From Thermodesulfobacteriota bacterium (GTDB taxonomy: Bacteria > Desulfobacterota > Desulfobacteria > Desulfobacterales > C00003060): a stretch of 64,000 nt of DNA. The notes under the pieces were generated by a model. It worked only from the letters and a program-made list of their open reading frames with translations, was not told the DNA's origin and ran no database searches. Positions 6,502 through 38,976 of this stretch are shown piece after piece; positions within the stretch are counted from its first letter, which is position 1; every line of letters starts with the position of its first letter. The DNA lies in NCBI GenBank assembly GCA_034189385.1, contig JAXHVD010000013.1, forward strand, positions 68,259 through 132,258, read 5' to 3'. Made by a program: the position numbers and the translations under genes.

Positions 6502-6509
6502 GTATCTAA

Positions 6510-13735: not shown

Positions 13736-14710
13736 TCACAGCCACTTTATCCGCTTGAACCATCCCACCAATAGTACTGCAAGGCCCACAAGGCCTAGAG
13801 CCACGATAGCAAAGGCCCATTTGTATTCTGCTCCCGGAATACCGCCGACATTGATCCCAAGCAGTCCTGTAAGGAGCCCCAAGGGCAAGAATATGGCCGC
13901 TACGATGGAAAGCAAGTACATGGCCTTGTTCATCTGTTCCGACAAACGGTTGTTCAGTTCTTCCTGGGTGACAGCAGCATGCTCACGGGCTGAGTCAATA
14001 TCTTCAACAAAACGTGCCGTGCGTTCCCATACCTCGCGTATGTGCGCTTTGTCCATGTCATCCAGCCATGGAATGCGTTCATTCTGCAACCGTGCAATAA
14101 CATCCCGCTGAGGGGCCACATATCGCCGCAGACTGATGGTCTGGCGCCGCAGGTCGGAAAGCTTGGGTCGTAGTTCCTTGCTTTCGGCAGTGAGCACTGT
14201 GTCTTCCAGTTCATCTACGCTGTCGTCAATTTCAGCCACCACGTCTCCCATCCGGTCTGTTATGCGACGGCAGACCATGATCAGAAAATCAGCCGAAGAG
14301 GTAGGCCCTGTACCGGACTTGATCGCGTTGCCAATGTCGTCAATGGCCATCACGCGCCTGTGTCTCATAGATAGGATGCGATGTTCGGTAAACAACATGC
14401 GCAATGAGACCATATCCTCAGGATCGGCTCCGGGGTTGCAGTTTACCCCCCGCAGTATCAAAAGGAGGCCCTCCTCAGAAAAGACGCAACGGGGCCGTGT
14501 CTCCTCTGCAAGCAAGGATTCCGATAATATGGAACTAAGGCCGCTGTCGTCCGATAACCATTTTTGAACTTTTTCATTGGCATAATCAAGGTGCAACCAC
14601 AGTACCCCTTGCTCCGCAGACCACTGCTTGACTCCTTTCCAATCGATAGCTTGGCCGCCACCCTGACCATCGAGGACATACGCAAATACGAGGCCTTCCT
14701 GTTCGTTCAT
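13736..14710 (-). CDS. zntB: Zinc transporter ZntB (CorA superfamily), copy 1
   Basis: 324 aa. The C-terminal TM pair carries the ZntB-type motif LTGLLGINVGGIPG and the ending ...WFKRIKWL. RBS AAGGGAGGGA. Confidence 0.9.
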   Translation of the reverse strand: MNEQEGLVFAYVLDGQGGGQAIDWKGVKQWSAEQGVLWLHLDYANEKVQKWLSDDSGLSSILSESLLAEETRPRCVFSEEGLLLILRGVNCNPGADPEDMVSLRMLFTEHRILSMRHRRVMAIDDIGNAIKSGTGPTSSADFLIMVCRRITDRMGDVVAEIDDSVDELEDTVLTAESKELRPKLSDLRRQTISLRRYVAPQRDVIARLQNERIPWLDDMDKAHIREVWERTARFVEDIDSAREHAAVTQEELNNRLSEQMNKAMYLLSIVAAIFLPLGLLTGLLGINVGGIPGAEYKWAFAIVALGLVGLAVLLVGWFKRIKWL

Positions 14711-14775
14711 GTTCCGTCCCTCCCTTGGATTGAAGCCCCATGTTTAAGTTGCCGCTGACGAAAACCCATGATCGG

Positions 14776-14804
14776 AATCTAATGGATGCCACAAGACCTG
14801 TCAA
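14776..14804 (-). promoter_or_regulatory. Putative sigma70-type promoter of zntB copy 1
   Basis: On the minus strand: TTGACA (14804-14799), a 17-nt spacer, then TAGATT (14781-14776), about 65 nt upstream of the zntB ATG. Confidence 0.4.
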
Positions 14805-15538
14805 ACACCGGACCTGAATCCAGCCAGATTGCCCACATCATGGCCCTTCCGTCTCATTGCGTGGGGGAAACCCGTCTCAGTACATGGAAAGAAAAGGGCC
14901 ATCCATTTCCTACTCCTTTGCGACGTTTCCCCCACTTGACATTCCTCTGCAATGTATGTAAGCAAAATGCAGACACACCTCTGGAGGGCAGCGAAGACTT
15001 TTTCCCCAGACGGCTTCTGGCAGCGTGCGCCTCTGCATGACTGGTCATTTTTCAGTGTTTTGCGTTGTTGGTCAACACAAGGGTTCGGGGTGAGTTGAGT
15101 TTCTCGTATGGAGGAGGGGTGAATGCGAGTGACTTTGGGACAACGCAATGGCCCAGCTTTGTTACCCCCTCTTTGTGCCCATATGGCACGTGAAATATTG
15201 CTCAACCAGGGGCTACCAATCACAGTGCCTCCTTTCCATGCCACCGGCCGCAGTGACGGCCAAGCAATCTACCTTTGTGGCGAAGAAGAATCACGACCCC
15301 ACCCTGTTTGCAGGCCTTTTCGCACACCTGCCGGCTCCGTCCGGGGTCGGATTGAGAGATGCCCTAATTATCTTAAACCGTTAGGCGAATCGCCGGCACA
15401 ATGTGCGCCTGTTGAAACCCTATGGGGCCGACCTCATCCCTTTGTGATCCATGGAATCGGAATGAAGACACGGGGGCTCAAGCATGGGTGGTCGTCCATG
15501 TTTGTGGCAAGTCTGGTGGAGCGCCCTGGAGAAGATAT

Positions 15539-15568
15539 CTGACAAGACTGACAAGCTTCAAATATACT
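15539..15568 (+). promoter_or_regulatory. Putative sigma70-type promoter of hsp20
   Basis: CTGACA (15539-15544), an 18-nt spacer, then TATACT (15563-15568), about 45 nt upstream of ATG 15614. Both hexamers are lost in the second repeat copy, which lacks hsp20. Confidence 0.35.
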
Positions 15569-15613
15569 CAATGTTGCCATCCTGGGGAGGCACACTGACA
15601 AGGAGGTGGTTGT

Positions 15614-16057
15614 ATGGACATAGTTCCGTGGAGGCCTTTTAGAGAACTCGGGACCCTGCGAAGAGAGATGGACAGCCTTTGGAATCGGTTCTTCGGGGAG
15701 ACATCGTTGCCAAGTGTTTTTTCACAAGAATGGGCGCCAAGGGTGGATGTCTCGGAGACCAAAAACAGTGTGGTGGTCAAGGCTGAGATCCCTGGCATGG
15801 AGGCAAAGGACATGGACGTAAGCGTCTCTGGCGATGTCTTGACTATTAGAGGCGAAAAGAAGAAGGAAGAGGAAAAGAAGGATGAGCATTACCATTATCG
15901 TGAAAGGTACTCGGGGTCCTTTCAGCGCTCATTCCAGCTTCCTGTGACCGTCAAAGGCGAGAAAGCGGATGCAACATTTAAGGATGGTGTCTTAACGATC
16001 ACCATTCCTAAGGCGGAGGAAGCCAAGAAAAAGGAAATCAAAGTCAAAACTGCGTAA
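15614..16057 (+). CDS. hsp20: Small heat-shock protein, Hsp20/alpha-crystallin family
   Basis: 147 aa with an alpha-crystallin domain (PRVDVSETKNSVVVKAEIPGMEAKDMDVSVSGDVLTIRGEKK...GVLTITIPK). RBS AAGGAGG. Confidence 0.9.
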   Translation: MDIVPWRPFRELGTLRREMDSLWNRFFGETSLPSVFSQEWAPRVDVSETKNSVVVKAEIPGMEAKDMDVSVSGDVLTIRGEKKKEEEKKDEHYHYRERYSGSFQRSFQLPVTVKGEKADATFKDGVLTITIPKAEEAKKKEIKVKTA

Positions 16058-16246
16058 GAATATATTCCCTCCCCGGGAGGCATGCACAGAGGCAAAAAGG
16101 CGGGTTTGCCACGATTTCCCTTTGCAGGCAAGGTGATGGTGGCACCGGTCCAACAAGGTGCTGGTTCAATCATCGCTCTTCCTGGAAATGCCAGCATTGG
16201 GTGGCAATATTCTATAAACCCAAGGAAAACGAACAGGAGGTTAAAG

Positions 16247-16381
16247 ATGGCAAATGTCAAGAAGGTCGGTGAAGTGTATAGATGTGAAGTCTGCGGGAAT
16301 GTGGTCGAGGTGAAGGAGGTTGGCGGAGGGGAGCTGGTCTGTTGCGGCCAAGCGATGATATTGGAAAAGGGAGGCAAATAG
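16247..16381 (+). CDS. Desulforedoxin (44 aa, Fe(Cys)4 protein)
   Basis: [44 protein letters not shown] has the C-x2-C ... C-C pattern of desulforedoxin and the desulfoferrodoxin N-domain. RBS AGGAGG. The longer ORF-track start 16082 is unsupported. Confidence 0.8.
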
Positions 16382-16441
16382 GAGGTCTCTTATGTCACAG
16401 GAAAAAACGCGAATGAAAGAGTCGATAGACTGGAGGAGATA

Positions 16442-17629
16442 ATGGCCGGCGTGAGAATCTATTCGGCAAAAGGATGTCCGTTCTGTGACAGGGCCAAATC
16501 GTTTTTGGAGGAGAAGGGAATCACCTTTGAAGAGATTGAGACCGTACCGGAATCAAAGGCCTGGATGGAGATGAAGGAGAAGACCGGAAGCGGTTCTCTG
16601 CCTCAGATAGTGATCCATGGCGAGCCGGTGGGGGGATACAGTGATCTTGTTAACATGGAAGCCGGTGGCGAATTCTACAAGAAACTGGGGCGTACTGAAC
16701 CGGAAGCATCCCCCCGTCTTTTCGATGTGATCATCATCGGGACCGGTCCTGCGGGCTTGAGTGCTGCCATTTATACGGCCCGGAAGGTCCTTAAAACCCT
16801 TGTTATTGGCAAAGAGATGGGCGGGCAGGTGGCATGGACATTTGATGTGGACAACTACTTGGGGTTCAGTCATGTCGACACAGCTGACCTGATCTCAAAG
16901 TTCGAGGAACATGTGGAAAAATATGGCGTGGAGAAGGTCACCGGCGTTGAGGTCACCGCCTTGGATCTTAGCGGCAAGGTGAAAAAAGTCACCGCAGGCG
17001 AGGCAGAGACGTATCAGGCCAAGACGGTCATTATTGCCACGGGGAAGCGGCCCAGACCCCTCAATGTGCCTGGTGAAAAAGAGCTGATCGGTAGGGGCGT
17101 GGCCTATTGTGCCACCTGCGATGCCCCTCTGTTTGCAGACCTTGATGTGGTGGTGGCAGGGGGCGGCAATTCAGCCTTGCAGTCAGCCATTGACCTTATA
17201 AAAGTCGCCCGAAAGGTCTACGTAGTCTCGTTGACCCCCTTGACGGCCGACCAGATCCTTCAGGACAAGGTAACCAGTGCCGCCAACGTGGAGATCTTCA
17301 CGGAATACAAAATTACCAGAGTCTTGGGAGACACGGCCGTCGAGGGCTTGGAGATGGAGGCCCTTGAGACAGCTGAGGCAAAGACCTTGAAGGTTCAGGG
17401 CGTATTTGTGGAGATCGGCCTCCTTCCCAACTCTGAGCTCGTGGTGGACACCTTGCGGACCAATCGTGTGGGAGAGATTGTCGTCGACAACAGGTGTCGC
17501 ACCGGCGTCGCGGGCGTGTTTGCCTGCGGGGATGTGACGGATGTTCCGTATAAACAAGTCGTTGTGGCAGCAGGGGAAGGGGCAAAAGCAGGCCTCTCGG
17601 CCTATGAGTATATCATTACCCAGAAGTAG
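16442..17629 (+). CDS. Glutaredoxin-domain / thioredoxin-disulfide reductase fusion protein
   Basis: The N-terminal Grx fold has CPFC. It is followed by a low-Mr TrxR-like flavoprotein (VIIIGTGPAGLSAAIY, redox-active CATCD, second dinucleotide fold VVAGGGNSA). Confidence 0.85.
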   Translation: MAGVRIYSAKGCPFCDRAKSFLEEKGITFEEIETVPESKAWMEMKEKTGSGSLPQIVIHGEPVGGYSDLVNMEAGGEFYKKLGRTEPEASPRLFDVIIIGTGPAGLSAAIYTARKVLKTLVIGKEMGGQVAWTFDVDNYLGFSHVDTADLISKFEEHVEKYGVEKVTGVEVTALDLSGKVKKVTAGEAETYQAKTVIIATGKRPRPLNVPGEKELIGRGVAYCATCDAPLFADLDVVVAGGGNSALQSAIDLIKVARKVYVVSLTPLTADQILQDKVTSAANVEIFTEYKITRVLGDTAVEGLEMEALETAEAKTLKVQGVFVEIGLLPNSELVVDTLRTNRVGEIVVDNRCRTGVAGVFACGDVTDVPYKQVVVAAGEGAKAGLSAYEYIITQK

Positions 17630-17775
17630 TAGATTGACATAGGGGGCAATCCTTCATTCTGCGGTTCAGAAGGCAGACAAAGAGGTCTTCGTGTCTTAAG
17701 GCATAAGGTTTTGCAGTCAGCCCTTGGCTGGCGCGCAGGGGCCGATCGACGGTTCTGTGTAAGGAGGAATGGTTT

Positions 17776-19590
17776 ATGGAAAAGCAGTATAAGTTTTCCA
17801 TCTGGTATGTGCTCATCGCCATCTGGATCGTGCTGATTCTTCAAAACATGATCTTCCAGTTCTTTTCAGTAGAGAGGGTGCCGTACAGTGAATTTGTCAA
17901 GGCTCTGCAAGGGGGGAAGGTGATAGAGGTGGCCGTGACCCAGGATCGCCTTCAGGGAAAGATGAGGGTCGAAAAGGACGGCAAAGAGACAGAAAAGGTG
18001 TTCAGCACCGTCCGTGTGGATTCGAACCTTTCCGAACTGTTGGAGAGGTATAATGTCACCTTCAAGGGGGTTGTGGAGAGCAACTTTCTAAAGAACCTCG
18101 CTTCGTGGGTCATTCCTATCTTTATTTTTGTGGGTGTCTGGTACTTCATGATGAAACGTTTTGCTTCGCAACAGGGCGGTTTCCTGACGCTAGGTAAGAA
18201 AAAGGCGAAGGTCTACGTGGAAGATGAAGTCGGGGTGCGCTTTGAAGATGCCGCCGGCGTCGACGAAGCCAAGGAGGAACTCGTGGAAGTGATCGAGTTC
18301 CTGAAGTTCCCAGACAAGTTCACAAGATTGGGCGGAAAGCTTCCCAAAGGGATCTTGCTGGTGGGCCCTCCGGGAACGGGTAAGACCCTCTTGGCCCGAG
18401 CAGTAGCCGGAGAAAGCGGTGTGCCCTTTTTCAGCATGAGCGGCTCAGAGTTCGTGGAACTCTTTGTGGGCATGGGCGCCGCCCGCGTACGGGATCTCTT
18501 TGCCCAAGCTAAAGAGAAGGCCCCTTGTATCATTTTCGTTGACGAACTTGACGCCCTGGGCAAGGCTCGGGGTATCGGCATGACCGGGGGCCATGACGAG
18601 AGAGAACAGACCTTGAACCAGCTCTTGGTGGAGATGGATGGATTTGACCCCACCATAGGGGTCATTCTGATGGCCGCCACCAATCGTCCGGAGATTCTGG
18701 ATCCGGCCCTGCTGCGAGCCGGCCGCTTTGACCGACACATCCTGGTGGATAGACCGGACAAAAACGGCAGAGCGGATATTCTGAAGGTTCACTTAAAAGG
18801 GATCACGATGGGCAAAGACATTGACGTGGATGCCGTGGCAGGGATGACGCCCGGATTTGTGGGGGCCGATTTGGCCAATCTGGTGAACGAAGCCGCCCTT
18901 TTGGCCGTGCGGCACGACAAAGAGAAGGTCGGGATGGCCGAGTTTCAGGAGGCAGTGGAACGTATCGTTGCCGGACTGGAAAAGAAGAACCGTCTCATCA
19001 ACAAAAAGGAAAGAGAAATTGTGGCCTATCACGAGGTGGGCCATGCGCTCGTGGCCCTTTCTTTGCCCGGGACCGACCCGGTTCGAAAGATCTCCATCGT
19101 GCCGAGGGGGGTGGCCGCCCTGGGTTATACTCTCCAGGTGCCCACCGAGGACCGCTTTCTGATGAGCAAAAGCGAACTCTTGAACAAGATCGCTGTGGCA
19201 CTCGGCGGCCGGGCCGCAGAAGAGATCAAGTTTGAAGACATCTCAACGGGCGCACACAATGATCTTGCCAGGGCTACGGATATTGCGCGAAGCATGGTCA
19301 AGCAATACGGTATGAGCCCCCAGCTGGGCCACATCTACTTTGAGAAAGAACGCACTCGGCAGTATTTTCTTGATATGGGGATGAGTTCACCAAAAGACTA
19401 CAGCGAGAAGACGGCAGGACTCATTGACCATGAGATGAGGGACATTATTGACCAGCAGTACCAGGTGGCCAGGGGGATACTGACCAAGCATAGAAAGGCC
19501 CTGGATGAGGGGGCGGCCCTGGTGTTAAAAGAAGAGAACATCGAGGGCGATCGCTTGAAGAACCTCCTTGGAGCCGAGAAGACAGGCTAG
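17776..19590 (+). CDS. ftsH: ATP-dependent zinc metalloprotease FtsH
   Basis: 604 aa with two N-terminal TM helices, AAA+ Walker A GPPGTGKT, Walker B IIFVDELD, an SRH region and the zinc site HEVGHA. Confidence 0.95.
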   Translation: MEKQYKFSIWYVLIAIWIVLILQNMIFQFFSVERVPYSEFVKALQGGKVIEVAVTQDRLQGKMRVEKDGKETEKVFSTVRVDSNLSELLERYNVTFKGVVESNFLKNLASWVIPIFIFVGVWYFMMKRFASQQGGFLTLGKKKAKVYVEDEVGVRFEDAAGVDEAKEELVEVIEFLKFPDKFTRLGGKLPKGILLVGPPGTGKTLLARAVAGESGVPFFSMSGSEFVELFVGMGAARVRDLFAQAKEKAPCIIFVDELDALGKARGIGMTGGHDEREQTLNQLLVEMDGFDPTIGVILMAATNRPEILDPALLRAGRFDRHILVDRPDKNGRADILKVHLKGITMGKDIDVDAVAGMTPGFVGADLANLVNEAALLAVRHDKEKVGMAEFQEAVERIVAGLEKKNRLINKKEREIVAYHEVGHALVALSLPGTDPVRKISIVPRGVAALGYTLQVPTEDRFLMSKSELLNKIAVALGGRAAEEIKFEDISTGAHNDLARATDIARSMVKQYGMSPQLGHIYFEKERTRQYFLDMGMSSPKDYSEKTAGLIDHEMRDIIDQQYQVARGILTKHRKALDEGAALVLKEENIEGDRLKNLLGAEKTG

Positions 19591-19806
19591 CTGTCTGTCG
19601 GTATCTTTCGATCGTGTTGGAGGTGGCCGAATGCAAAGGGGTTGTCGCCCAAGTCCCTTTTGCCTGAACCGTTTTTGCATGGATCCATCGCTTGTCCGAG
19701 CCCGCCTTGTATGGCAGATTCGTTGGAATCTATGGACAAGAAATGTTTCAAAGAAGGGCCTGGAGGAATTTCTGTCTGGGCAACAGCCCGTAGAAAGGGG
19801 GAGGAG

Positions 19807-20136
19807 ATGAAAAAAGCTGGTTTGGGTCTTTTGATCGTCTGTTTGCTGGGATCGGTCGGTATGGGAGCGGAGAAGGAAAAAGGCGTGTTCCATGAATTGA
19901 GGTGTGACATATGTCACAAGGCAGAGCCTTCCGGAAACTCGCCTTCTTTGAAGGAAATAGCCCAGGGTTACCAGGGGAAAGAAGATCACCTCCTGGGCTA
20001 TTTGAAGGGGGATGTGGACCCCATCGTGAAACCGGGCGGCGCAGGTGTGATGAAGAGATATCTTGAAAAGACAAAGGCCCTTTCAGCTACGGAGACGAAA
20101 TCATTGGCTGACTTTATCATGAGCCAGTCAAAATAG
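19807..20136 (+). CDS. Small periplasmic monohaem c-type cytochrome
   Basis: ATG 19807 follows GGGGGAGGAG. The signal peptide is MKKAGLGLLIVCLLGSVGMGA, there is a single CDICH haem motif, and a distal Met candidate lies in GAGVMKRY. Confidence 0.7.
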   Translation: MKKAGLGLLIVCLLGSVGMGAEKEKGVFHELRCDICHKAEPSGNSPSLKEIAQGYQGKEDHLLGYLKGDVDPIVKPGGAGVMKRYLEKTKALSATETKSLADFIMSQSK

Positions 20137-20252
20137 GAAACAAGTCTTAGGGCAACAGCCCGTCCAGACCCAGCCATTTCAAGTCCGGTGTGTTAGGGAT
20201 ATCGACCTTGGAGATGTGGATGTCTCCTAAGATGAAATAGGGAGGTGACGCT

Positions 20253-20957
20253 ATGGAAGGAGCCCCTGTAGCAAGAGAAAGAACACAGGTCGTGGTCAAC
20301 GATTTTGTGAGGAGTGTTTACAACTGGATGGGCGTGGGACTTGCACTGACCGGATTTATCGCCTTGTACGTCTCCACCAGTGAGACCCTGATGCGGCTCG
20401 TTTTCGGCAACCAACTTATTTTTTTCGGGTTGATCATAGCCGAGCTTGCCCTGGTCTTTTCCATAAGCGCGAGAGTAGACAAGATGAGCGCAGGCACAGC
20501 CACCACCCTCTTTGTTATCTATTCCGCCCTCAATGGGGTGACCTTGTCCTTCATATTTCTCGTCTATGCCCGGGCCTCCATTGTAAGTACGTTCTTCATC
20601 TGCTCAGCCACTTTTCTGGCGTGTAGTGTTTACGGCTGGACGACCAAGAGGGATTTGACCTCCTGGGGCGGATTTCTCATGATGGGGCTGATCGGTGTCA
20701 TTATCGCCTCTTTGGTCAATATGTTCATCCAAAGCAGCGCGGTGAACATGATGGTCAGCTACATAGGGGTGCTCGTATTTGTGGGCCTGACCGCCTATGA
20801 TACCCAGAAATTGAAAAACATGGCCGTGACACAGCCCGCTGGCCTTGACGCCGCCGTGATCAAAAAGGGAGCTGTTTTAGGTGCCCTGTCTCTTTATCTT
20901 GACTTCATTAACCTCTTCTTGCTGCTGCTCAGGATTCTTGGCCGGGGGCGGGACTAG
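20253..20957 (+). CDS. Bax inhibitor-1/YccA family membrane protein
   Basis: 234 aa with seven predicted TM helices. The N-terminus (FVRSVYNWMGVGLALTG) and C-terminus (ALSLYLDFINLFLLLLRILG) are typical of BI-1/YccA. Confidence 0.8.
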   Translation: MEGAPVARERTQVVVNDFVRSVYNWMGVGLALTGFIALYVSTSETLMRLVFGNQLIFFGLIIAELALVFSISARVDKMSAGTATTLFVIYSALNGVTLSFIFLVYARASIVSTFFICSATFLACSVYGWTTKRDLTSWGGFLMMGLIGVIIASLVNMFIQSSAVNMMVSYIGVLVFVGLTAYDTQKLKNMAVTQPAGLDAAVIKKGAVLGALSLYLDFINLFLLLLRILGRGRD

Positions 20958-21080
20958 GTTTTAAAGGAGACATGTTTGGGGTTTGTCGATCGTGTGCCGC
21001 TTGCCCTTGTGATACTGAGGCCCAGGCTAGTGATGCAGCGTGACCAAGAGTAAGGCGTAAGAGGTATTCTTATTGCTTCC

Positions 21081-22511
21081 ATGAAAGCGCATTCAAAACG
21101 GGCAAGGACCAAGATTGTGTGCACCTTGGGCCCGGCCACCTTTGCGGCCGATGGCATTCGGCGGCTTATTCTCTCGGGAATGGATGTGGCTCGTCTCAAC
21201 TTTTCCCATGGGGACCACGACACCCATCGTCAGACCCTTCGGATCATCAGAGAGCTCTCTAAGGAATTGGGAAAAGAGGTTGGGGTCCTCCAGGACCTTG
21301 GGGGACCGAAAATCCGTATCGGAAACCTGCCGGTTCAAGAAAGACGCCTCCAGCCTGACGAACCTGTTGTTCTGAGCCCAGCGGCCACATCGGATCCATC
21401 CGTGATCCCCGTGAACTATCCTTATATTGTGGAGGACGTAGAAGTCGGCAGTCGCATTCTCCTTGCCGACGGCCTGATTGAACTTGAGGTGCAAGGGAAA
21501 GAGGCGGACCGGCTGGTTTGTCGGGTGGTGGTGGGAGGGATGGTGCAGTCTCACAAGGGGATCAATTTGCCATCCAGCACGCTCAGGGTGCCGGCTTTCA
21601 CTGACAAGGACCGGGAAGATCTTGCCGTTGGATTGGAAGAGGGAGTGGATTTTGTAGCCCTATCCTTTGTTCGTCACGAACAGGACCTGGAACCGGTGCG
21701 GGCAATTTTAGACCAGAGCCCGAAACCTCCTTTGTTGATCGCTAAGATTGAAAAAGCCCAGGCCATCCAAAGGTTTGATAAGATCCTGGCCATGGTTGAC
21801 GGTGTCATGGTGGCCCGGGGTGATCTGGGCGTAGAAATGCCTCTGGAGGCGGTGCCGATGATCCAGAAGAAGATCATTCGGATTGCCCGTCAGTCTGGCA
21901 AACCGGTGATCACTGCCACGCAGATGCTCCGATCCATGGTTGAGAGCCCCCGGCCCACCCGCGCGGAGGCAACGGATGTGGCAAACGCTATTTTAGACGG
22001 TACGGATGCCCTGATGCTCTCCGAGGAGACGGCTATGGGAGCTTATCCCATAGAGGCTGTGAAGGTCCTCGACAGAATTGCTCGAACCACGGAACCGTAC
22101 TTAAGGGAACGTGACTTGCTGAACGAACCAATGGCCGAGTCCCTTCCCATGACCGCGTCGAGCATCAGTCGGTCTGCCTGCTGGATGGCTGACAATCTTC
22201 ATGCAGCCGGCATCGTTGCCGGCACGTCTTCGGGCAGCACGGCCCGTTTAGTGGCGCGATTTCGACCCGCATGCCCTGTGGTGGGGTTGACCCCTCGCCT
22301 TGAGACGCAACGCCAGTTGACCTTGTCTTGGGGGGTACTCCCCACCTTGGCGACATCCTTTTCAGACACAGAGCAGATGTTTGACTTGGCCCGTTCATGG
22401 GCCGTGGAGTACGGCCTTGCCCGCCAAGGAGACCGTCTAGTCGTGACTGCGGGCGTCCCGTTGGGAGCCCCTGGAAGCACGAATCTTCTGAAAGTCATTG
22501 AGATTACATAG
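21081..22511 (+). CDS. pyk: Pyruvate kinase
   Basis: 476 aa. Motifs: TKIVCTLGPA, MDVARLNFSHG, VMVARGDLGVEMP and ATQMLRSM. Confidence 0.95.
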   Translation: MKAHSKRARTKIVCTLGPATFAADGIRRLILSGMDVARLNFSHGDHDTHRQTLRIIRELSKELGKEVGVLQDLGGPKIRIGNLPVQERRLQPDEPVVLSPAATSDPSVIPVNYPYIVEDVEVGSRILLADGLIELEVQGKEADRLVCRVVVGGMVQSHKGINLPSSTLRVPAFTDKDREDLAVGLEEGVDFVALSFVRHEQDLEPVRAILDQSPKPPLLIAKIEKAQAIQRFDKILAMVDGVMVARGDLGVEMPLEAVPMIQKKIIRIARQSGKPVITATQMLRSMVESPRPTRAEATDVANAILDGTDALMLSEETAMGAYPIEAVKVLDRIARTTEPYLRERDLLNEPMAESLPMTASSISRSACWMADNLHAAGIVAGTSSGSTARLVARFRPACPVVGLTPRLETQRQLTLSWGVLPTLATSFSDTEQMFDLARSWAVEYGLARQGDRLVVTAGVPLGAPGSTNLLKVIEIT

Positions 22512-22740
22512 GCCCAGAAAGGGACAGGAGTGCGTATGGTGAAGTTGGTGCTGCTCCGCCGCGGGCCAGCGAGCCTTGAACCTGGAAAACTTGATATACG
22601 AATGCATGTCTCCTTCGGAGATGGTTGGAATTACTCGCTTTCAGGCGAAGTAAGTTTTCAAGTGTTTGGATACAGCCGTGTAGGAGTTTTGTCGTTCCGG
22701 CCCTGTATCAAGGACGGGGTAGACTGCAGCCGGGCACGCA

Positions 22741-22782
22741 GTGCCTCTTTTGAAGCCGCCGGGCGCAAACTTGAGATACATG
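22741..22782 (+). repeat. Dispersed repeat, copy D (terminal module only) upstream of glgP
   Basis: GTGCCTCTTTTGAAGCCGCCGGGCGCAAACTTGAGATACATG matches the terminal module of copies A and B, including the CTTGAG..GATACATG tail shared with copy A. Confidence 0.5.
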
Positions 22783-22800
22783 CTTAGAGGAATGTAAGAC

Positions 22801-24927
22801 ATGGAGTCTGAAGAAAGTCTATTTCTCAACCTCCCCCAGCGTCTTGTGGGACTGGGGGAGCTGGCTGAAAATTTGTGGTGGAGCTGGCATCCCGCTGCGA
22901 GAATGCTTTTCAAGACGCTGAGCCGTCGAGCGTGGAAGGAGACCGGCCACAATCCCGACAAACTGCTCAGGGAGTTGCCCCAAGAGATTTTAGAATCAGC
23001 CGCCAAGGATCCTGAGTATTTGCGCCAGTATGACGTCGTGCTTGCTCGGTTTCAGGGGGAGATTTCGGAGGCATGCTGCCTGGTCAATGCCGGAAGTGAT
23101 CCGAACATCCACGCCATCGCCTATTTTTCCGCAGAATATGGCCTGCATCATTCCTTGCCCTTTTATGCCGGGGGATTGGGTTTTTTGGCCGGGGATTTTG
23201 TCAAGGAGTGCAGCGACTTGAGGTTGCCAATGGTGGCTGTGGGCTTCATGTATCCGGAGGGCTACGTTCAACAGCGGATTCGCGAAGACGGCTGGCAGGA
23301 GAACCTGGATCAGGCCCTTGACCGGGATGCTGCGTCCATATCCAGGGTTCTGAATGAAAAGGGAGAGCAGGTGGTGGTGAAAGTCCCTTTTATCGAGCCG
23401 CCCATTCATGTGGCCGTGTGGAAGGTGACGGTCGGCAGGGTCCCCCTTTTTCTCATGGACACGGATATTGAGATCAACGATCCGTGGTACCGCGCCATAT
23501 CGGCGCGTCTCTACACGGGCGACATTGAGCAGCGGCTGCGGCAAGAAATCGTCCTCGGCATTGGAGGGACAGAGGTCTTGCAGGCCCTTGGCATCAAACA
23601 CACGGTACTCCATCTAAATGAAGGACACGCTGCTTTTGCCCTCCTTGAGAGAATTAGGGCCAGGGTGGAGGCAGGAATGGGGTATGAAGAGGCTGCAGAC
23701 CAGGTAAGGCGCACCGCCATTTTCACGACCCACACCCCGGTGCCGGCAGGTCATGATGTGTTCCCTTTTCAATTGATGGGAAAGTACTTTCATTCTTACT
23801 GGCCGGCCTTGGGCCTGGATCACGACAGGTTCCTGGAGCTGGGTGTTCACCCCCAAGAACCGGCAGCAGGATTTAACATGACGGCCTTTGCCCTCAGAAT
23901 GTCCGGGTATAGCAATGCCGTGAGTAGAAAACACGGGGAGGTGAGTCGGCGCATGTGGCAGAGCCTGTGGCAGGAGGGGGCTGAAGATCACGTGCCCATT
24001 GGCCATGTGACCAACGGTGTGCATGTGCCCACATGGATTGAACCCAAGCTGGAACTCCTTTTCAATAAATATCTCGGCCCAGACTGGTTGCGGGATCACG
24101 ATAATCCCTCTCTTTGGGAGTTGATCGACAATGTCCCGGATGAAGAGCTATGGCAGACCCATTACTGGCTGAAGATCAAATTGATCGATGCCGTGCGGGA
24201 GCGATCTCGCCAGCTCTGGGCCAAGGAGCGGGTCAGCCCTTCCATTGGGCTTGCCGGAGGAGCCTTGCTGGACCCTTCAGTATTGACATTGGGCTTTGCA
24301 AGACGCTTTGCGACCTATAAAAGGGCGGATCTCATCTTCAGTGATATGGAACGATTGAAAAGGCTTCTGAACGACAGATGGAGGCCGATACAGATTATCT
24401 TTGCGGGCAAGGCCCACCCGGCAGACGACCCGGGCAAGCGCATTCTGCAGAGAGTATTTAATGCTGCCCGCGACCCGGAGATGGGCGGGCGGATCGCCTT
24501 TGTACAAGATTACGGTGAGCAGTTTGCACAATACATGGTCCATGGGGTGGATGTATGGTTAAATACCCCTCTACCGCCCATGGAGGCAAGCGGCACGAGC
24601 GGCATGAAAGCGGCCTTAAATGGCGTGCCCCAACTGAGTATCATGGACGGGTGGTGGATCGAGGGATTCAACGGCAAGAACGGTTGGGCCTTTGGGCAAG
24701 AAGCAATAGACGGGAACGGGGACCAGCAAGACGCCGATGGCCTTTACACTATTCTGGAAAAGGAAGTCATCCCTCTTTACTATAAGGTCTCGGACAATGG
24801 TACGCCCCACGACTGGGTCAGGGTCATGAAGGAGTCTATCAAGAGCAATGGGGCCAGGTTTTCAAGTAGGCGGATGGTGAGGGAATATACTCAAAAATTC
24901 TATATGAAGGCGTTGAAAGAGGCATGA
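22801..24927 (+). CDS. glgP: Alpha-glucan (glycogen/maltodextrin) phosphorylase, GT35
   Basis: 708 aa with the short bacterial alpha-glucan phosphorylase architecture. The PLP-lysine region is EASGTSGMKAALNG. Confidence 0.9.
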   Translation: MESEESLFLNLPQRLVGLGELAENLWWSWHPAARMLFKTLSRRAWKETGHNPDKLLRELPQEILESAAKDPEYLRQYDVVLARFQGEISEACCLVNAGSDPNIHAIAYFSAEYGLHHSLPFYAGGLGFLAGDFVKECSDLRLPMVAVGFMYPEGYVQQRIREDGWQENLDQALDRDAASISRVLNEKGEQVVVKVPFIEPPIHVAVWKVTVGRVPLFLMDTDIEINDPWYRAISARLYTGDIEQRLRQEIVLGIGGTEVLQALGIKHTVLHLNEGHAAFALLERIRARVEAGMGYEEAADQVRRTAIFTTHTPVPAGHDVFPFQLMGKYFHSYWPALGLDHDRFLELGVHPQEPAAGFNMTAFALRMSGYSNAVSRKHGEVSRRMWQSLWQEGAEDHVPIGHVTNGVHVPTWIEPKLELLFNKYLGPDWLRDHDNPSLWELIDNVPDEELWQTHYWLKIKLIDAVRERSRQLWAKERVSPSIGLAGGALLDPSVLTLGFARRFATYKRADLIFSDMERLKRLLNDRWRPIQIIFAGKAHPADDPGKRILQRVFNAARDPEMGGRIAFVQDYGEQFAQYMVHGVDVWLNTPLPPMEASGTSGMKAALNGVPQLSIMDGWWIEGFNGKNGWAFGQEAIDGNGDQQDADGLYTILEKEVIPLYYKVSDNGTPHDWVRVMKESIKSNGARFSSRRMVREYTQKFYMKALKEA

Positions 24928-25289
24928 GGCAATGAAACACCGTTTGGCGAGGGTGTCGCGCTCTAGAGGTTATGCGCAAAGGACAAAAAGGGCTTCAGGT
25001 GAAGATCGGTGAATTTAAAGAGGAATGGACGCTCCGAGCGATGACACACAACCCCTAAGAAGATCTTCCACTTGGCATGCACGCTGAGCAGCTCATGCTG
25101 AAAATCATCTGGTATTTCGGTTTTTCGGAAAAAACTGGTCTGGTTGTAGGAGGGCTGGCTGGCGAGAGCAAGCAACTCAAGCAGGTCTTTAGCATAAGAA
25201 CCTCATCATTGAACTGAATAAAATCCAATAAGGAAAGCAATTGAATGGGCAGTATAGATTTGTCTCACCTGATAAGGAGTAATTTATTC

Positions 25290-26771
25290 ATGAATGTTAA
25301 TTTTCAATACAGGCCTATCTTTCTTCTCTTATGTTTTAATGCCCTTTTTGCGTTCAATCTTTACGGCTGCATTCAGAAAAAATCATATAATTATAAAGAT
25401 GTCAAAAAAGAGGTAGAAGTTAAAAAGATGTCGACCTCTTTCAATCGAAAAACCGTGCAAGAACCGGATTTTATTGTTCCTTCATCACCTTTACCCTTGG
25501 TGGATGCTATCAAAATCGCCCTTCAAAATAATCCTGAAATCGAGATGGCCGTAGCCCGGATAAACCAGTCCGAGGCGTTGATCGACGAAGCAACAGCATC
25601 ATTCTGGCCTGTCATCTCGACCTTCATGGAATACATACAGGGTGATGCTCCTTCTGCCTTTCTCTTCAAGACCATGGACCAAAGGAAATTGCAGCAGGGT
25701 GTCAACTTCAATGACCCTGGCTGGTTTGAAAATTACGAAATCGGTTTAAAAGCGACGATCAACCTCTACAATGGAGGACGAGATTTGCTTCGCAAGCGAA
25801 TGGCCGAGACTGGCCTTGAAATTTATGAACTAGATTATCAGAGTGTTGAGAATGCACTCATTGCATCCGTAATTGGGGGATATTTCAATGCCCTTGCAGC
25901 CAACGATTTCATAGAGATCGCCAAGGAGTCTGTAACTACGGTTGAGAAACAACTTAGAATCATGCGTGTGAGATATGAAGAGGGAGGGGCTCTCAAATCG
26001 GATGTCCTTTCCCTTGAGGTGCGATTGGCCCAGGCACGGGAAGATCTTGTTAGGGCCAGAAACAATTACATGCTTTCCATTGCAGCCCTTTCGAATCTTC
26101 TGGGTTTACATCCAAATGTGGCTCTGTCATGTAAAAAAGGTGAAGAGACCCCTTTAGAATTACCACCTGATTACGAATCAGGTATCGTTCACGCCCTCGC
26201 CAACCGTCCCGAACTGCAAAAAGTAAGGCTTCAGATCATCCAATCACGAATGGGTTTGGATGTGGCCCGTGCGGGATATATCCCTCGCCTAGATGCTCAG
26301 AGCAGGGTCTATTATGATGATCCAGATTTTGATTTTTCTGATGACCGGAGGAACTGGACAGCCGGTGTCATCCTGAATTGGGATCTCTTCTCAGGATTCA
26401 GTACGAGAGCTCACGTTGCCAAGGAAAGAGCAATTCTTGAAGAGATGATAGCCGCTGACCGAAAAACCACCCAGGCCGTCCAATTGGATTTGAAAACCGC
26501 TTATCTAAAGATGGCGGAGTCTGAGGCGCGTCTGGAGGTAACAAAGGCAAGCGTTGCCCAGGCAGACGAGACCCTGAGACTCGTTAAGAAGCAATATGAG
26601 GGTGGTTCCGCGAGCATCACTCGATACCTGGATGCGGAACTGACAAGAAACAAGGCCAAGATTAGAACCGCGGCTGCACTCTATGACCTGCAAAAGGCCA
26701 AAGCCGCGGTGGGCCGTGCACTGGGTATTTGGGCCATCTTTGCGGAAGGAGTACATGACAAGTATGAATAA
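25290..26771 (+). CDS. TolC/NodT-family outer membrane efflux protein
   Basis: ATG 25290 follows TAAGGAG. A lipoprotein-like signal ends in LYGC, and there are two OEP repeats with long coiled coils. It is the first gene of an OMF-MFP-RND operon. Confidence 0.85.
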   Translation: MNVNFQYRPIFLLLCFNALFAFNLYGCIQKKSYNYKDVKKEVEVKKMSTSFNRKTVQEPDFIVPSSPLPLVDAIKIALQNNPEIEMAVARINQSEALIDEATASFWPVISTFMEYIQGDAPSAFLFKTMDQRKLQQGVNFNDPGWFENYEIGLKATINLYNGGRDLLRKRMAETGLEIYELDYQSVENALIASVIGGYFNALAANDFIEIAKESVTTVEKQLRIMRVRYEEGGALKSDVLSLEVRLAQAREDLVRARNNYMLSIAALSNLLGLHPNVALSCKKGEETPLELPPDYESGIVHALANRPELQKVRLQIIQSRMGLDVARAGYIPRLDAQSRVYYDDPDFDFSDDRRNWTAGVILNWDLFSGFSTRAHVAKERAILEEMIAADRKTTQAVQLDLKTAYLKMAESEARLEVTKASVAQADETLRLVKKQYEGGSASITRYLDAELTRNKAKIRTAAALYDLQKAKAAVGRALGIWAIFAEGVHDKYE

Positions 26772-27936
26772 AAGTTTCAAGAGGATGTTAAGGATTGTGA
26801 CCTATATCTCGGGTGCATTGCTGCTTGTTCTATTTATCATCTACATGGGGGGATTATTGACTCCGGGGAAAATCGGACCGGGCAGGGTAAAAAAGATATC
26901 TTCAGAGTTCATCCCACCCGGAAAAACGGGCCGTGCTGAGATTTCCAAGATTACAGAATTCTACGAAGCCATTGGAACGGTGCGTCCTCGGACCGAGACC
27001 AAAATCGAAGCCCAGGTAACGGGCAGGGTCATGGAGGTCCTTGTTCGACCCGGTGATGCGATCAGTAAAGGGAAGCTTCTGATCGTGCTGAATAGCGAAG
27101 AGTTTCAAGCCCGTGTGGATCAGGCCAGACAGGGCCTAGTTTCGGCAGTAGCCCGAAAAGAACAGGCCAAACAGGGCGTTTTTGCAGCCCGGGCGGCTTA
27201 TGCGGAGGCGGAATCCACCTACCAAAGGGTAGAGAAGTTCTTTGCATCGGAGGCTGCTACGAAACAGGATTTGGAACAAGCCGAATCGGCCTATCTTCAG
27301 GCTAAGGCTAGGCTGAAACAGGCCGAAGATGTCTTGAAGGAAGCGGAAGCCGGGGTTAACCGCACGAGAAAAATCGTTGAAGAGAGTTCTATCACCCTTG
27401 ATTATAACAAAATAAGGGCTCCGGACAATGGACAGGTGGTCGAACGTTTGGCAGAACCCGGTGACCTGGCCTGGCCCGGCAAGCCTCTGCTCGTGCTACA
27501 GACCAGGGAAGCCCTCCAACTGGAGGCCCTCGTCCGTGAAGGACTGATTCATAAGGTAAACCCCGGCATAGCCCTTGAGGTCCACATAAACGCTCTGAAC
27601 AGAACCATGGAGGGAAAAGTGGAGGAAGTGATCCCATCTGCGGATCCATCGACGCGGACATTCCTCGTCAAGGTGGGCCTTCCAACCCAGCAAGACCTTT
27701 ATCCCGGTATGTTCGGACGCCTGCTTGTCCCTATCAAAGAGAATGAAGTTGTCGTGGCCCCAGGTTCCGCGATACGTCGCATAGGCCAGCTAGATGTCGT
27801 GATGATCGAGGAGAAAGGTGAATGGAAAGAGATTTTTGTCAAAACGGGCAGACCCGTGAGCGGTGACAAAGTTGAAATCCTCTCCGGGCTCAATGGGAAT
27901 GAGACCATCGCGCTGTTAGGAGAAAAAGATGCCTGA
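26755..27936 (+). CDS. RND efflux periplasmic adaptor (membrane fusion protein, HlyD family)
   Basis: ATG 26755 follows GAAGGAG and overlaps the OMF stop. It has an N-terminal anchor, a coiled-coil hairpin and lipoyl/beta-barrel motifs (IRAPDNGQVV..., PGMFGRLLVPI). Confidence 0.85.
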   Translation: MTSMNKSFKRMLRIVTYISGALLLVLFIIYMGGLLTPGKIGPGRVKKISSEFIPPGKTGRAEISKITEFYEAIGTVRPRTETKIEAQVTGRVMEVLVRPGDAISKGKLLIVLNSEEFQARVDQARQGLVSAVARKEQAKQGVFAARAAYAEAESTYQRVEKFFASEAATKQDLEQAESAYLQAKARLKQAEDVLKEAEAGVNRTRKIVEESSITLDYNKIRAPDNGQVVERLAEPGDLAWPGKPLLVLQTREALQLEALVREGLIHKVNPGIALEVHINALNRTMEGKVEEVIPSADPSTRTFLVKVGLPTQQDLYPGMFGRLLVPIKENEVVVAPGSAIRRIGQLDVVMIEEKGEWKEIFVKTGRPVSGDKVEILSGLNGNETIALLGEKDA

Positions 27937-30900: not shown

Positions 30901-31156
30901 TATAGAGTTTATTGAGGCGGCTCTGAAAGAGGGGCTGACCCTACAGGAGGCGATCCTGCGGAGCGGTGCTGTAAGATTCAGGCCCATTGTATTGACGGCC
31001 GCCACAACGGCCCTCGGCGCATGGCCCATCACCCTGGACCCCATCTTTTCCGGACTGGCCTGGGCCCTGATTTTCGGCTTGGTTGCATCGACCCTCTTTA
31101 CTCTCTTTGTTGTTCCAGTAACATATTACGCTCTGAACCGAAGGAGGCTTGGTTAA
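27929..31156 (+). CDS. RND efflux transporter permease (AcrB/CzcA superfamily)
   Basis: 1075 aa with 12 TM helices and two large periplasmic loops. Its start overlaps the MFP stop. Confidence 0.9.
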   Translation: MPDINHSPEGLIPKIVRHFLDYRLSILFLLFAICAGISAIMITPREEEPQIVVPLADVFVQVPGATAEEVEKLVATPLERLLWQIDGVEYVYSVSRRDMAVVTVRFCVGEDRERSLVKLHNKISMNVDQVPPVVGRWVIKPVEIDDVPIVNLTIHSSRYSDSELRRIGEEVLSRLAEVEDVSRTQIIGGRSWEVRVEVIPERMSGYGVSLLEVERALRGTDASVTAGAFNRRNRETAVTSTSFVASVQEVENIVVGVHAARPVYLRDIAEVLDAPEEAKTYSRIGFSNRQLQEKSPDATSSLQPAVTLAIAKKKGANAVLVARNILQRVEALKRDVIPAGVQVQVTRNYGQTAQQKVSDLIESLVFAILTVVGLLALTLGWREALIVAVAVPISFSLALFVNYLFGYTINRVTLFALILSLGLVVDDPITNVDNIQRHIRMGKRNPVEATLFAVKEVLPPVIMSTLAIIVSFTPLFFITGMMGPYMAPMAANVPLTVSFSTVCALTFVPWLSYLLLRGRKIEAGDKNDAQQADVTHPWIKRGYGALMSPLLASGSKRVLLAVVVLALLAISVALPAIRYVPFKMLPFDNKNEFQIVVDMPEGTTLETTDRVVRAFEDHLKEVPEVTHFISCVGTSSPMDFNGMVRHYYLREGGNMADIRVNLADKAKRKQQSHEIVLRIRKDLEAIASERGALIKLVEVPPGPPVVSTLVAEIYGSPDRSYDQLIQGAAHIKTVMEKEPYVVDIDNTVETPRDRVDFILDKEKAALHGVNTKMITQTLKMTLEGENPATVHKPGERQPLPIKLILPRDRRTGTTSLSQIPIKTSTGGMVPLAEMGSFVKIRENQPIYHKNLLRVVYVFGEMAGRAPAEAVLDMQKKLEKNPLPPGIRVDWAGEGEWKITLQVFRDLGIAFTAALMGIYILLVIQMKSFFMPILIMVAIPLTLIGIMPGFCLFNVFFTETIGGFQNPVFFTATSMIGMIALGGIVIRNSLVLIEFIEAALKEGLTLQEAILRSGAVRFRPIVLTAATTALGAWPITLDPIFSGLAWALIFGLVASTLFTLFVVPVTYYALNRRRLG

Positions 31157-31218
31157 AACCTATAGAACCAATCGTAACACAACAAATATTGCTTATTATG
31201 TAAATCTGCAGCTTCAAG

Positions 31219-31557
31219 GTGAAAAGCTTCAGTTTGACAGACAGTGCCGCTAGCCTAATCACCCAAAAGGGCTGTAGACATTCAGATTCTATGCATCATC
31301 ATGATCTGATTCTGTTTTTTCTTCAAATCTGTGTGATGCTCATGGCCGCCATCACCTTTGGCCAGGTGATGCTCATGCTTCGCCAGCCTTCTGTCCTCGG
31401 GGAATTGATGGGGGGCATGGTGCTCGGCCCCACCGTCTTTGGCGCATTGGCACCCCAGTCATACACCTGGCTATTCCCTAGCGAGGACGTCACCTCATTG
31501 GGGCGGGAAGCAGTGATGAAGATCGGCATGTTGTTCTTTCTCTTCCGCGTATTCTAG
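31219..31557 (+). pseudogene. N-terminal fragment of a CPA2-type cation:proton antiporter
   Basis: Only 112 codons. The motif LRQPSVLGELMGGMVLGPTVFG matches the first two TM helices of Kef/NapA-type antiporters. The frame ends at TAG-TGA, and ~430 bp without a credible ORF follow. Confidence 0.55.
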
Positions 31558-35309: not shown

Positions 35310-35464
35310 CCGGGCTCCAGCTTAGGGAAGACACCGACCTCTCATCCCTGGATGAGGCCTTCGGAAAGATCGTTGGTGAGGTTTGTCTCGGGACCTGTTG
35401 CAGACCAGTTGGCTGGCTGGATACGTAAGAAAAAGCACAAAGGGGCGGAAAAGACCACTTAGAA

Positions 35465-38966: not shown

Positions 38967-38976
38967 GAGGTACACC

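What the first reader, a model, noticed from the sequence alone, without database searches (positions are those of the whole stretch)
13736..15549. 1.8-kb direct duplication 23 kb apart with a perfectly identical core and diverged edges (gene-conversion signature)
Region 13736-15549 recurs at 36755-38571. The first ~180 bp (the zntB 3' end) carry about 12 substitutions. All are synonymous, because the two 324-aa proteins are identical, which implies an old duplication under purifying selection. The next 1517 bp (13917-15433 vs 36936-38452) show no difference I could find. The last ~115 bp drop to roughly 80% identity with small indels. Old edges around an identical core point to recent gene conversion rather than a single recent duplication. 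The repeats bracket ~21 kb that includes ftsH and pyk, and they could mediate amplification or deletion of that segment. An assembly artefact is the alternative explanation for the identical core.
Basis: seen in the sequence. Interest (0 to 1): 0.6.

Follow-up and report, generated by a model that had tools for sequence, protein, structure and literature searches.

The report
Two zntB loci homogenised by recombination
Two copies of a zinc-transporter gene and the 0.8 kb upstream of it lie 23 kb apart, are old duplicates, and have been overwritten by one another at least twice; this is ordinary bacterial gene conversion, and the "perfect" identity of the core cannot be trusted in this short-read assembly.

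Summary
Region 13736-15549 recurs at 36755-38571. The zntB 3' end carries 11 substitutions, all synonymous. The next 1517 bp are identical. The last ~116 bp are about 82% identical, with two indels.

Two metagenome relatives serve as positional orthologues. L180 matches the copy-1 site (bestrophin-like gene, zntB, spacer, intact desulforedoxin). L088 matches the copy-2 site (DUF481, zntB, spacer, hsp20, decayed desulforedoxin, SOR). The desulforedoxin remnants group by locus at 13 of 15 informative sites, so the duplication predates these lineages. The zntB cores group by genome, which is concerted evolution.

Copy 1 carries a roughly 2.4-kb patch of locus-2 ancestry that includes hsp20. Copy 2 has since lost hsp20. 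The 1517-bp tract is the youngest layer.

One caveat matters. The genome is a de Bruijn assembly with k=121, in which long exact repeats occur only as intra-contig loops and no isolated difference between repeat copies survives. "Zero differences" and the cis order are therefore the assembler's inference.

This is a known kind of event and of low interest.

The parts
13736..15549 (.). Repeat copy 1, as reported (zntB plus upstream non-coding DNA)
36755..38571 (.). Repeat copy 2
13917..15433 (.). Identical core in copy 1 (1517 bp; youngest homogenised tract)
   Evidence: one search finds no difference; permutation test; assembly caveat
36936..38452 (.). Identical core in copy 2
13736..14710 (-). 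zntB-1 (CorA-superfamily zinc transporter, 324 aa)
   Evidence: Pfam CorA 1.5e-75; NCBIfam ZntB NF007092 at 305.9 bits, cut-off 292
36755..37729 (-). zntB-2, with an identical protein
14711..15613 (.). Spacer between zntB-1 and hsp20. It is mostly non-coding and 91% identical to L088, with a conserved block at 14981-15107. It contains promoter-like sites for zntB (14804-14776, minus strand) and hsp20 (15539-15568, plus strand)
   Evidence: No Pfam or Rfam hit. Substitutions against L088 fall 26/20/19 by codon phase, and the indels are 2 nt long. Promoter scan
15123..15542 (+). 139-codon ORF inside the spacer; coding status unresolved
   Evidence: ATG and Shine-Dalgarno are conserved in L088 and L180, and gene callers called it there. 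Against this, dN/dS is 0.72 and 0.48, no family exists beyond L088, and the C-terminus is frameshifted between copies
15614..16057 (+). hsp20, present only at copy 1 in this genome. It is 97% identical to the hsp20 at the copy-2-type locus of L088
16247..16381 (+). Desulforedoxin dx1, intact (CxxC...CC); orthologous to the dx of L180
38835..38966 (+). dx2, decayed (no ATG, second Cys of CxxC lost). It is orthologous to the dx pseudogene of L088, which has two in-frame stops
38572..38837 (.). 265-bp filler that replaces hsp20 and its downstream spacer at copy 2. It is built from dispersed-repeat modules found on at least 15 contigs
13750..16170 (.). Approximate extent of the locus-2-type (B-type) patch inside the copy-1 locus (older overwrite)
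   Evidence: dS from the zntB core to L180 is 0.65, against 0.34 for the A-flank (p=0.001). L180 aligns to the copy-1 flank up to the stop codon and again from 16146. L088-type similarity fades near 16190
15550..36754 (.). 21.2-kb segment bracketed by the repeats: hsp20, dx1, grx-trxR, ftsH, cytochrome c, yccA-like, pyk, glgP, tolC-MFP-RND, CPA2 fragment, CDF, pgm, CBM48 fragment, DUF481
   Evidence: pyk and pgm are single-copy in the genome
12835..13680 (+). Bestrophin-like (DUF4239) gene, left flank of copy 1; syntenic with L180
35465..36505 (+). DUF481 gene, left flank of copy 2; syntenic with L088
38977..40014 (+). Tat-signal sulfur oxygenase reductase, right flank of copy 2; syntenic with L088

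Best explanation
Two old paralogous loci each carry the unit zntB (minus strand), a ~0.9-kb spacer and desulforedoxin. Locus A lies beside the bestrophin-like gene. Locus B lies between DUF481 and the Tat-SOR gene. RecA-type homologous recombination between them (ectopic, non-reciprocal gene conversion) has overwritten one with the other at least twice. An older event put about 2.4 kb of B-type sequence into locus A: zntB, spacer, hsp20 and part of the following spacer. That patch has since diverged from copy 2 (dS 0.27; about 14% in non-coding DNA). Copy 2 later lost hsp20 to a dispersed-repeat element. The youngest event homogenised 1517 bp, comprising 794 bp of zntB and 723 bp upstream. Shown: the mosaic, the orthology of the flanks, and the grouping of the cores by genome. 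Inferred: the mechanism, the B-to-A direction of the older event, and how recent the youngest event is. The direction of the youngest event is unknown.
For: The mosaic is confirmed and non-random. L088 and L182 carry a single B-type locus: DUF481, zntB, spacer, hsp20, dx pseudogene, SOR. L182 is an independent assembly, 99.95% identical to L088. L180 carries an A-type locus: bestrophin-like gene, zntB, 850-nt spacer without hsp20, intact dx. It is 85% identical to the copy-1 flank, in one alignment that runs through the stop codon. dx informative sites favour (dx1,L180)|(dx2,L088) by 13:2:0 (p=3e-5). In zntB, the core differs from L088 by dS 0.30 and from L180 by dS 0.65, while the A-flank differs from L180 by only 0.34 (p=0.001). 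The hsp20 of copy 1 is 97% identical to that of L088 (dS 0.10). The edge has 11 synonymous and 0 non-synonymous changes. recA is present. The repeat holds no transposase or integrase.
Against: The assembly is a de Bruijn graph build. Six pairs of contig ends overlap by exactly 121 nt. Every exact repeat longer than 1 kb is an intra-contig loop. No self-alignment of 500 bp or more shows a single difference flanked by at least 121 identical bases on both sides. The core is therefore one graph edge used twice: sparse real differences (up to roughly 1%) would have been erased, and the cis order is inferred. A relative at 80-95% identity is co-binned (contigs C26 and C47), so population heterogeneity is real. 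The outgroups are single short contigs, one per locus type. The two edges give discordant branch patterns (Fisher p=0.007). Informative sites in the zntB edge are unresolved (8:5:3).
Confidence: 0.7

Rival explanations
1. Assembly or population artefact. No single genome holds two cis copies. The assembler threaded one collapsed 1.5-kb graph edge twice through a loop. The real structures would be, for example, a chromosome with one hybrid copy (bestrophin side, core, SOR side) plus a 23-kb circle or a structural variant in a co-occurring strain.
For: The k=121 signature is present, and every long exact repeat is an intra-contig loop. No isolated differences survive between repeat copies. A relative is co-binned. 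Contamination is 4.2% and the genome has 64 contigs. No independent assembly of this population was found.
Against: Both ends of the 21-kb middle segment run through unique, diverged edges into the core. Any replicon carrying that segment therefore has the core on both sides, or is a circle. The segment holds the genome's only pyk and pgm and has no replication, partition or integrase genes. Copy 2 keeps the L088 synteny on both flanks and copy 1 keeps the L180 synteny on its left flank, as expected for two real loci. A core diverged by 5% or more would have assembled as its own path, as other 94-97% repeats did.
Confidence: 0.12
2. A recent duplication followed by imports. The 1.5-kb core marks a young duplication. 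The diverged edges would be the ends of homologous-recombination imports from related strains, each entering from a flank and stopping inside the repeat.
For: Divergence from L088 varies widely along the region: dS 0.10 for hsp20, 0.16 for SOR, 0.30 for the zntB core and 0.51 for DUF481. That is typical of recombining populations. The left edge of copy 2 together with DUF481 is the most diverged block.
Against: This needs at least two independent imports, both ending inside a 1.8-kb repeat. It does not explain the dx remnants grouping by locus with L180 and L088. Nor does it explain the existence of both locus types in relatives. Both show that two loci existed long before the core became identical.
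Confidence: 0.08
3. The patch came from outside. The B-type patch in copy 1, or the identical core itself, was acquired by transfer from an L088-like neighbour and integrated by homologous recombination at locus A. It was not copied from this genome's own copy 2.
For: The hsp20 of copy 1 is as close to L088 (dS 0.10) as orthologous flanks are. In the right edge, copy 1 has the longest branch: 11 unique sites against 5 and 2.
Against: The core is identical to the resident copy 2 but 8-9% different from L088. The last event therefore involved the resident copy or a near-clonal donor. The left edge groups copy 1 with copy 2 against L088: 16 L088-unique sites against 7 and 9.
Confidence: 0.1

Closest known systems
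Concerted evolution of dispersed bacterial paralogues by gene conversion. Examples: the prokaryote-wide survey PMC6053082, and tufA/tufB in enterobacteria (recalled from my own knowledge, not checked here)
   Same: The paralogues are more alike within the genome than to their positional orthologues. The homogenised tract is bounded by older, diverged sequence. The process is non-reciprocal and RecA-type. Both copies are under purifying selection.
   Different: Here the tract covers a gene plus 0.72 kb of upstream non-coding DNA. An earlier tract appears to have carried a whole extra gene (hsp20) from one locus to the other. The evidence comes from one short-read metagenome bin.
Gene conversion between rRNA operons (PMC8022953, PMC6002687)
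   Same: Repeated homogenisation of kb-scale dispersed repeats on one chromosome.
Repeat-mediated duplication and conversion that short reads miss or misrepresent (M. tuberculosis long-read studies, PMC12046097 and PMC13061034)
   Same: The same methodological problem applies: short-read assemblies cannot phase differences inside repeats.
   Different: Those studies had long reads. Here none could be consulted.
RecA-dependent amplification or deletion between direct repeats (general bacterial genetics, recalled from my own knowledge)
   Same: Direct repeats of 1.5 kb, 23 kb apart, are a suitable substrate.
   Different: There is no evidence of copy-number change here. Deletion would remove the only pyk and pgm.

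Membership tests
Ectopic gene conversion / concerted evolution between paralogues | Two paralogous copies in one genome | tested here: met
   The assembly holds two copies on contig C5 and none elsewhere. The cis order rests on the assembler.
Ectopic gene conversion / concerted evolution between paralogues | Over the converted tract, the paralogues are closer to each other than to their positional orthologues | tested here: met
   The two cores are identical. The core differs from L088 by dS 0.30 and from L180 by dS 0.65. Informative sites are 27:0:0.
Ectopic gene conversion / concerted evolution between paralogues | Unconverted parts keep the locus-wise (orthologous) phylogeny | tested here: met
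   dx sites favour (dx1,L180)|(dx2,L088) by 13:2:0 (p=3e-5). The flanks are syntenic with L180 and L088 respectively.
Ectopic gene conversion / concerted evolution between paralogues | Differences significantly clustered (Sawyer/GENECONV-type test) | tested here: met
   None of 200,000 permutations reached the observed run, and the bound is 1e-27. The version restricted to polymorphic sites gives a bound of 1e-18.
Ectopic gene conversion / concerted evolution between paralogues | Identity of the tract verified on reads, not produced by repeat collapse | not testable with these tools
The assembly shows k=121 and no isolated differences between repeat copies.
Ectopic gene conversion / concerted evolution between paralogues | Homologous-recombination machinery present | tested here: met
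   recA scores 569 bits, above the cut-off of 325.
ZntB (CorA-superfamily zinc transporter) | Matches the curated ZntB model above its cut-off and has the CorA fold domain | tested here: met
   NF007092 scores 305.9 bits against a cut-off of 292. PF01544 matches at 1.5e-75 over the full model. A C-terminal G-I-N motif in ...LLGINVGGIPG... is visible in the translation.
ZntB (CorA-superfamily zinc transporter) | Transports zinc | not testable with these tools
   No assay was possible. The name follows the family model only.
Transposon- or IS-borne duplication | Transposase or integrase and terminal inverted repeats at the ends of the repeat | tested here: not met
   The ORFs of the repeat have no Pfam hit other than CorA. 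No inverted repeats lie at its ends. Its boundaries coincide with gene ends and with homology to dx.
Collapsed-repeat assembly artefact | De Bruijn assembly in which long exact repeats appear only as loops and isolated differences are absent | tested here: met
   Six contig-end overlaps are exactly 121 nt. The five exact repeats longer than 1 kb are all intra-contig. No isolated difference appears in any self-alignment of 500 bp or more.
Collapsed-repeat assembly artefact | Only one real copy, or a core as diverged as the edges | tested here: inconclusive
   The unique diverged edges on both sides of the 21-kb segment, and the synteny with two locus types in relatives, argue for two real loci. 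Read evidence is lacking.

The most novel reading that the evidence does not exclude
The two units may be a maintained pair rather than decaying duplicates. Recurrent conversion would keep zntB and its conserved 0.7-kb upstream element identical. One such tract would have relocated a whole gene, hsp20, from the SOR locus to the ftsH/thioredoxin-reductase stress cluster. The resulting 1.5-kb direct repeats would then poise the 23-kb block of metal-efflux, proteostasis and glycogen genes for reversible RecA-dependent amplification under stress.
Probability: 0.1. Interest if true: 0.45.

Novelty: new member of a known kind. Interest (0 to 1): 0.22.

Why it matters
It is a well-documented case of layered concerted evolution in an uncultured sulfate-reducer-type bacterium, with positional orthologues for both loci. 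It shows how a conversion tract can carry a neighbouring gene (hsp20) to a new locus. It also gives a practical warning. In k-mer graph assemblies, an 'identical core with diverged edges' is partly produced by the assembler. The many similar findings in such genomes therefore need read-level checks before anyone calls them 'recent'. For annotation: the genome has two identical zntB genes, one live and one decayed desulforedoxin, and a 21-kb segment flanked by recombination-competent repeats.

Tried and rejected
- **RNA and tRNA searches.** Rfam at gathering threshold on the whole window found nothing. In E-value mode on 14600-15700 it gave only chance eukaryotic hits. No tRNAs were found.
- **Plasmid collection.** No match.
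- **Independent assemblies.** Exact-protein look-up of ZntB returned nothing on record. An exact 40-mer from the core had no hit in JGI metagenomes.
- **Relatives in the genome collection.** Same-genus and same-order genomes carry no DNA match beyond a 68-70% zntB CDS. Their grx-trxR neighbourhoods are unrelated, so they could not show the empty site.
- **Spacer near other zntB genes.** The spacer is absent from the 160 zntB loci fetched. The two close relatives found later, L088 and L180, carry it (L180 only weakly).
- **Spacer as a structured RNA.** The folding z-scores are -1.07 and +1.43, so there is no signal.
- **Spacer as a protein gene.** There is no codon periodicity. The 139-aa ORF has dN/dS of 0.5-0.7 and no family. 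I left this unresolved rather than rejected.
- **Transposon origin.** Rejected, because the repeat has no transposase and no terminal inverted repeats.
- **L180's OEP as the orthologue of the window's tolC.** Rejected at 28% identity.
- **Using the 11 edge sites to assign A or B ancestry.** The result was unresolved (8:5:3).

Full report
**Observation**

A direct repeat, 13736-15549 versus 36755-38571 (offset 23019), is present and is the only pair of its kind in the 4.13-Mb genome. Exact alignment gives three zones.
- The left edge has 11 substitutions between 13741 and 13916.
- The core, 13917-15433 against 36936-38452, has no difference over 1517 bp.
- The right edge, 15434-15549, has 16 substitutions plus a 1-nt and a 4-nt indel.

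The repeat holds a 324-codon gene on the minus strand. It matches Pfam CorA and passes NCBIfam's ZntB model (305.9 bits against a cut-off of 292). The two products are identical and all 11 differences are synonymous.

The clustering cannot be chance. The longest identical run in 200,000 permutations was 629 bp against 1517 observed, with an analytic bound near 1e-27. Synonymous differences number 11 of 48 sites in the edge and 0 of 181 in the rest of the gene (p=1e-8).

**What the unit contains**

Upstream of zntB lie about 0.9 kb without a recognised gene.
- There is no Pfam or Rfam hit.
- Substitutions against the nearest relative show no codon periodicity (26/20/19, against 44/11/5 in zntB), and the indels are 2 nt long.
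- RNA folding shows no unusual stability.
- Promoter-like hexamers face zntB (14804-14776) and hsp20 (15539-15568).
- One ORF, 15123-15542, has a conserved ATG and Shine-Dalgarno and is called as a gene in relatives. Its dN/dS is 0.5-0.7, its C-terminus is frameshifted among copies, and it has no family. I leave its coding status open.

I confirm this. Region 16253-16417 matches 38838-39002 at 72%, including the RBS and first codons of the next gene. dx1 is intact (PF06397). dx2 has lost its ATG and the second Cys of CxxC. The old unit was therefore zntB, spacer and dx, about 2.7 kb. Between the spacer and dx, copy 1 has hsp20 (15614-16057). Copy 2 has instead a 265-bp filler made of modules that recur on at least 15 contigs.

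**Relatives give positional orthologues for both loci**

L088 is a 4.9-kb JGI contig with 95% ZntB identity. It was re-found as L182, an independent ENA assembly 99.95% identical to it. It carries a single arrangement: DUF481, zntB, spacer, hsp20, dx with two in-frame stops, Tat-SOR and yeeE. That is the copy-2 context with hsp20 still in place.

L180 is a 5.2-kb ENA scaffold with 91% ZntB identity. It carries a bestrophin-like gene, zntB, an 850-nt spacer without hsp20, and an intact dx. It aligns at 85% with copy 1 in one continuous alignment through the stop codon into the left flank, down to 12445. That is the copy-1 context.

In dx, 13 of 15 informative sites support (dx1,L180)|(dx2,L088), 2 support (dx1,dx2), and none support the third grouping (p=3e-5). 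The two loci therefore existed before these three lineages split. In zntB the opposite holds: the two cores are identical and all 27 informative sites group them against both relatives. This contrast defines concerted evolution.

**Layers and direction**

The zntB core differs from L088 by dS 0.30. That lies inside the range of the copy-2 flanks (SOR 0.16, yeeE 0.16, DUF481 0.51). It differs from L180 by dS 0.65, twice the value for the copy-1 flank gene (0.34; p=0.001). L088 against L180 is 0.52. The core is therefore of locus-2 (B) ancestry in both copies.

Copy 1 also carries the B-type spacer (91% to L088) and an hsp20 97% identical to that of L088 (dS 0.10), which L180's A-type locus lacks. 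L088-type similarity in copy 1 fades near 16190, and L180-type similarity resumes from 16146. At the other end, the last two variable sites before the stop codon (13741, 13745) have the L180 state in copy 1, which is only a hint.

I infer an older overwrite of about 2.4 kb of locus A by locus-B sequence that brought hsp20 along. Divergence followed (edge dS 0.27; right edge about 14%). Copy 2 then lost hsp20. Finally came the 1517-bp homogenisation, whose direction cannot be told. The two edges have different branch patterns against L088. The left edge has L088-unique 16, copy-1-unique 7 and copy-2-unique 9. The right edge has 2, 11 and 5 (Fisher p=0.007). The history may hold further events.

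A possible origin of the arrangement is a tandem duplication between the dx paralogues followed by deletion. This is speculation.

**Mechanism**

No transposase, integrase or terminal inverted repeats are present. recA is present. The most economical mechanism is RecA-dependent, non-reciprocal recombination between the two units. This is inferred, not shown.

**The assembly caveat**

The genome looks like a metagenome bin: 64 contigs, 90% complete, 4.2% contamination. Contigs C26 and C47 are a syntenic relative at 80-95% identity to the part of C5 just left of the window. Several features point to a de Bruijn graph assembly.
- Six pairs of contig ends overlap by exactly 121 nt, the signature of k=121.
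- All five exact repeats longer than 1 kb (2062, 1888, 1517, 1160 and 1016 nt) are intra-contig. The longest exact run shared between two different contigs is 594 nt.
- No self-alignment of 500 bp or more contains a difference flanked by at least 121 identical bases on both sides.
- The near-identical repeats elsewhere show their few differences only at their ends.

The core is thus one graph edge traversed twice in a loop. Isolated real differences would have been removed as bubbles, and the order left-flank, core, 21 kb, core, right-flank is the assembler's solution.

What survives this caveat:
- Repeats 94-99% identical elsewhere were kept apart, so a core as diverged as the edges would not have collapsed.
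- Both ends of the 21-kb segment run through unique diverged edges into the core.
- That segment holds the genome's only pyk and pgm and has no plasmid functions, so a 23-kb circle is unlikely.
- Each copy keeps synteny with its own locus type in relatives.

I therefore read 'identical' as 'at least about 99% identical'. I put about 0.12 on a structural artefact. Exact-protein and exact-40-mer look-ups found no independent assembly of this population.

**Consequences**

The repeats bracket 21,205 bp holding hsp20, dx1, a Grx-TrxR fusion, ftsH (with paralogues on C2 and C3), cytochrome c, a YccA-like protein, pyk, glgP, a TolC-MFP-RND pump, a CDF transporter and pgm. They are a suitable substrate for amplification. 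Deletion would remove single-copy central-metabolism genes. The assembly cannot show copy number.

**Verdict**

The reading of an old duplication with later gene conversion is supported and extended to at least two layers, an older B-to-A direction and the relocation of hsp20. Perfect identity is not independent evidence in this assembly. The phenomenon is well known (PMC6053082, PMC8022953; short-read limits in PMC12046097). This is a new instance of it, of low general interest. An earlier look-up in this scan's notes shows that the same 'identical core, diverged edges' pattern has been reported in dozens of other genomes, so the assembler effect documented here is worth checking in those cases.

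Noticed in passing
window 6506-7025, 12250-12458, 44540-44766, 46723-47025: Several families of dispersed 150-220-nt repeats (MITE/REP-like) have dozens of copies at 75-97% identity across most contigs of the genome.
   Followed up: partly
window 38572-38837: The 265 bp that replace hsp20 at copy 2 are made of two modules of a dispersed repeat. The modules occur together, in the same order, on C2, C8 and C26, and singly on at least 15 contigs.
   Followed up: partly
window 12835-13680: The bestrophin-like (DUF4239) gene has an in-frame TAG at 13063-13065. The orthologue in L180 has Gln at that position and is uninterrupted. With TAG read through, the Pfam match covers the whole domain. This looks like a young nonsense mutation.
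   Followed up: partly
window 14981-15107: This block of the spacer has only one substitution against L088 in 127 nt, while neighbouring non-coding DNA differs by 9-22%. A promoter-like TTGACC-17-AAAAAT lies on the minus strand at 15075-15047. It is followed by a long hairpin and a U-rich run. It could be a leader or a small RNA. Covariation cannot be tested with only two sequences.
   Followed up: partly
genome contigs C26 (29.5 kb) and C47 (4.5 kb) versus C5:25869-68139, just left of the window: A second, syntenic version of about 40 kb of C5, at 80-95% identity, sits in the same bin. It is either a co-binned related population or a large old segmental duplication.
   Followed up: partly
genome contig C62:28734-30628 versus 35423-37319: The 5' 1.9 kb of two neighbouring giant-protein genes (2084 aa and at least 855 aa) are 94.8% identical and end in a 662-nt exact run. 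This is the same mosaic type as the finding.
   Followed up: no
window 16442-19590 versus genome contig C2:126081-135800: The Grx-TrxR fusion and ftsH inside the bracketed segment have paralogues on C2 (68% and 83% aa) in a second cluster. A third ftsH lies on C3 (48%).
   Followed up: no
L088:1567-1700 (reverse strand) and window 38835-38966: The desulforedoxin gene upstream of the Tat-SOR gene is decayed in both lineages: two stops in L088, and a lost start and Cys in the window. Its 3' end, which carries the SOR ribosome-binding site, stays conserved.
   Followed up: yes
window 40765-41120 versus 43256-43611: This is a 350-bp direct repeat at 90% identity. The second copy is a yedE C-half fragment. 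It was also listed by earlier notes.
   Followed up: no
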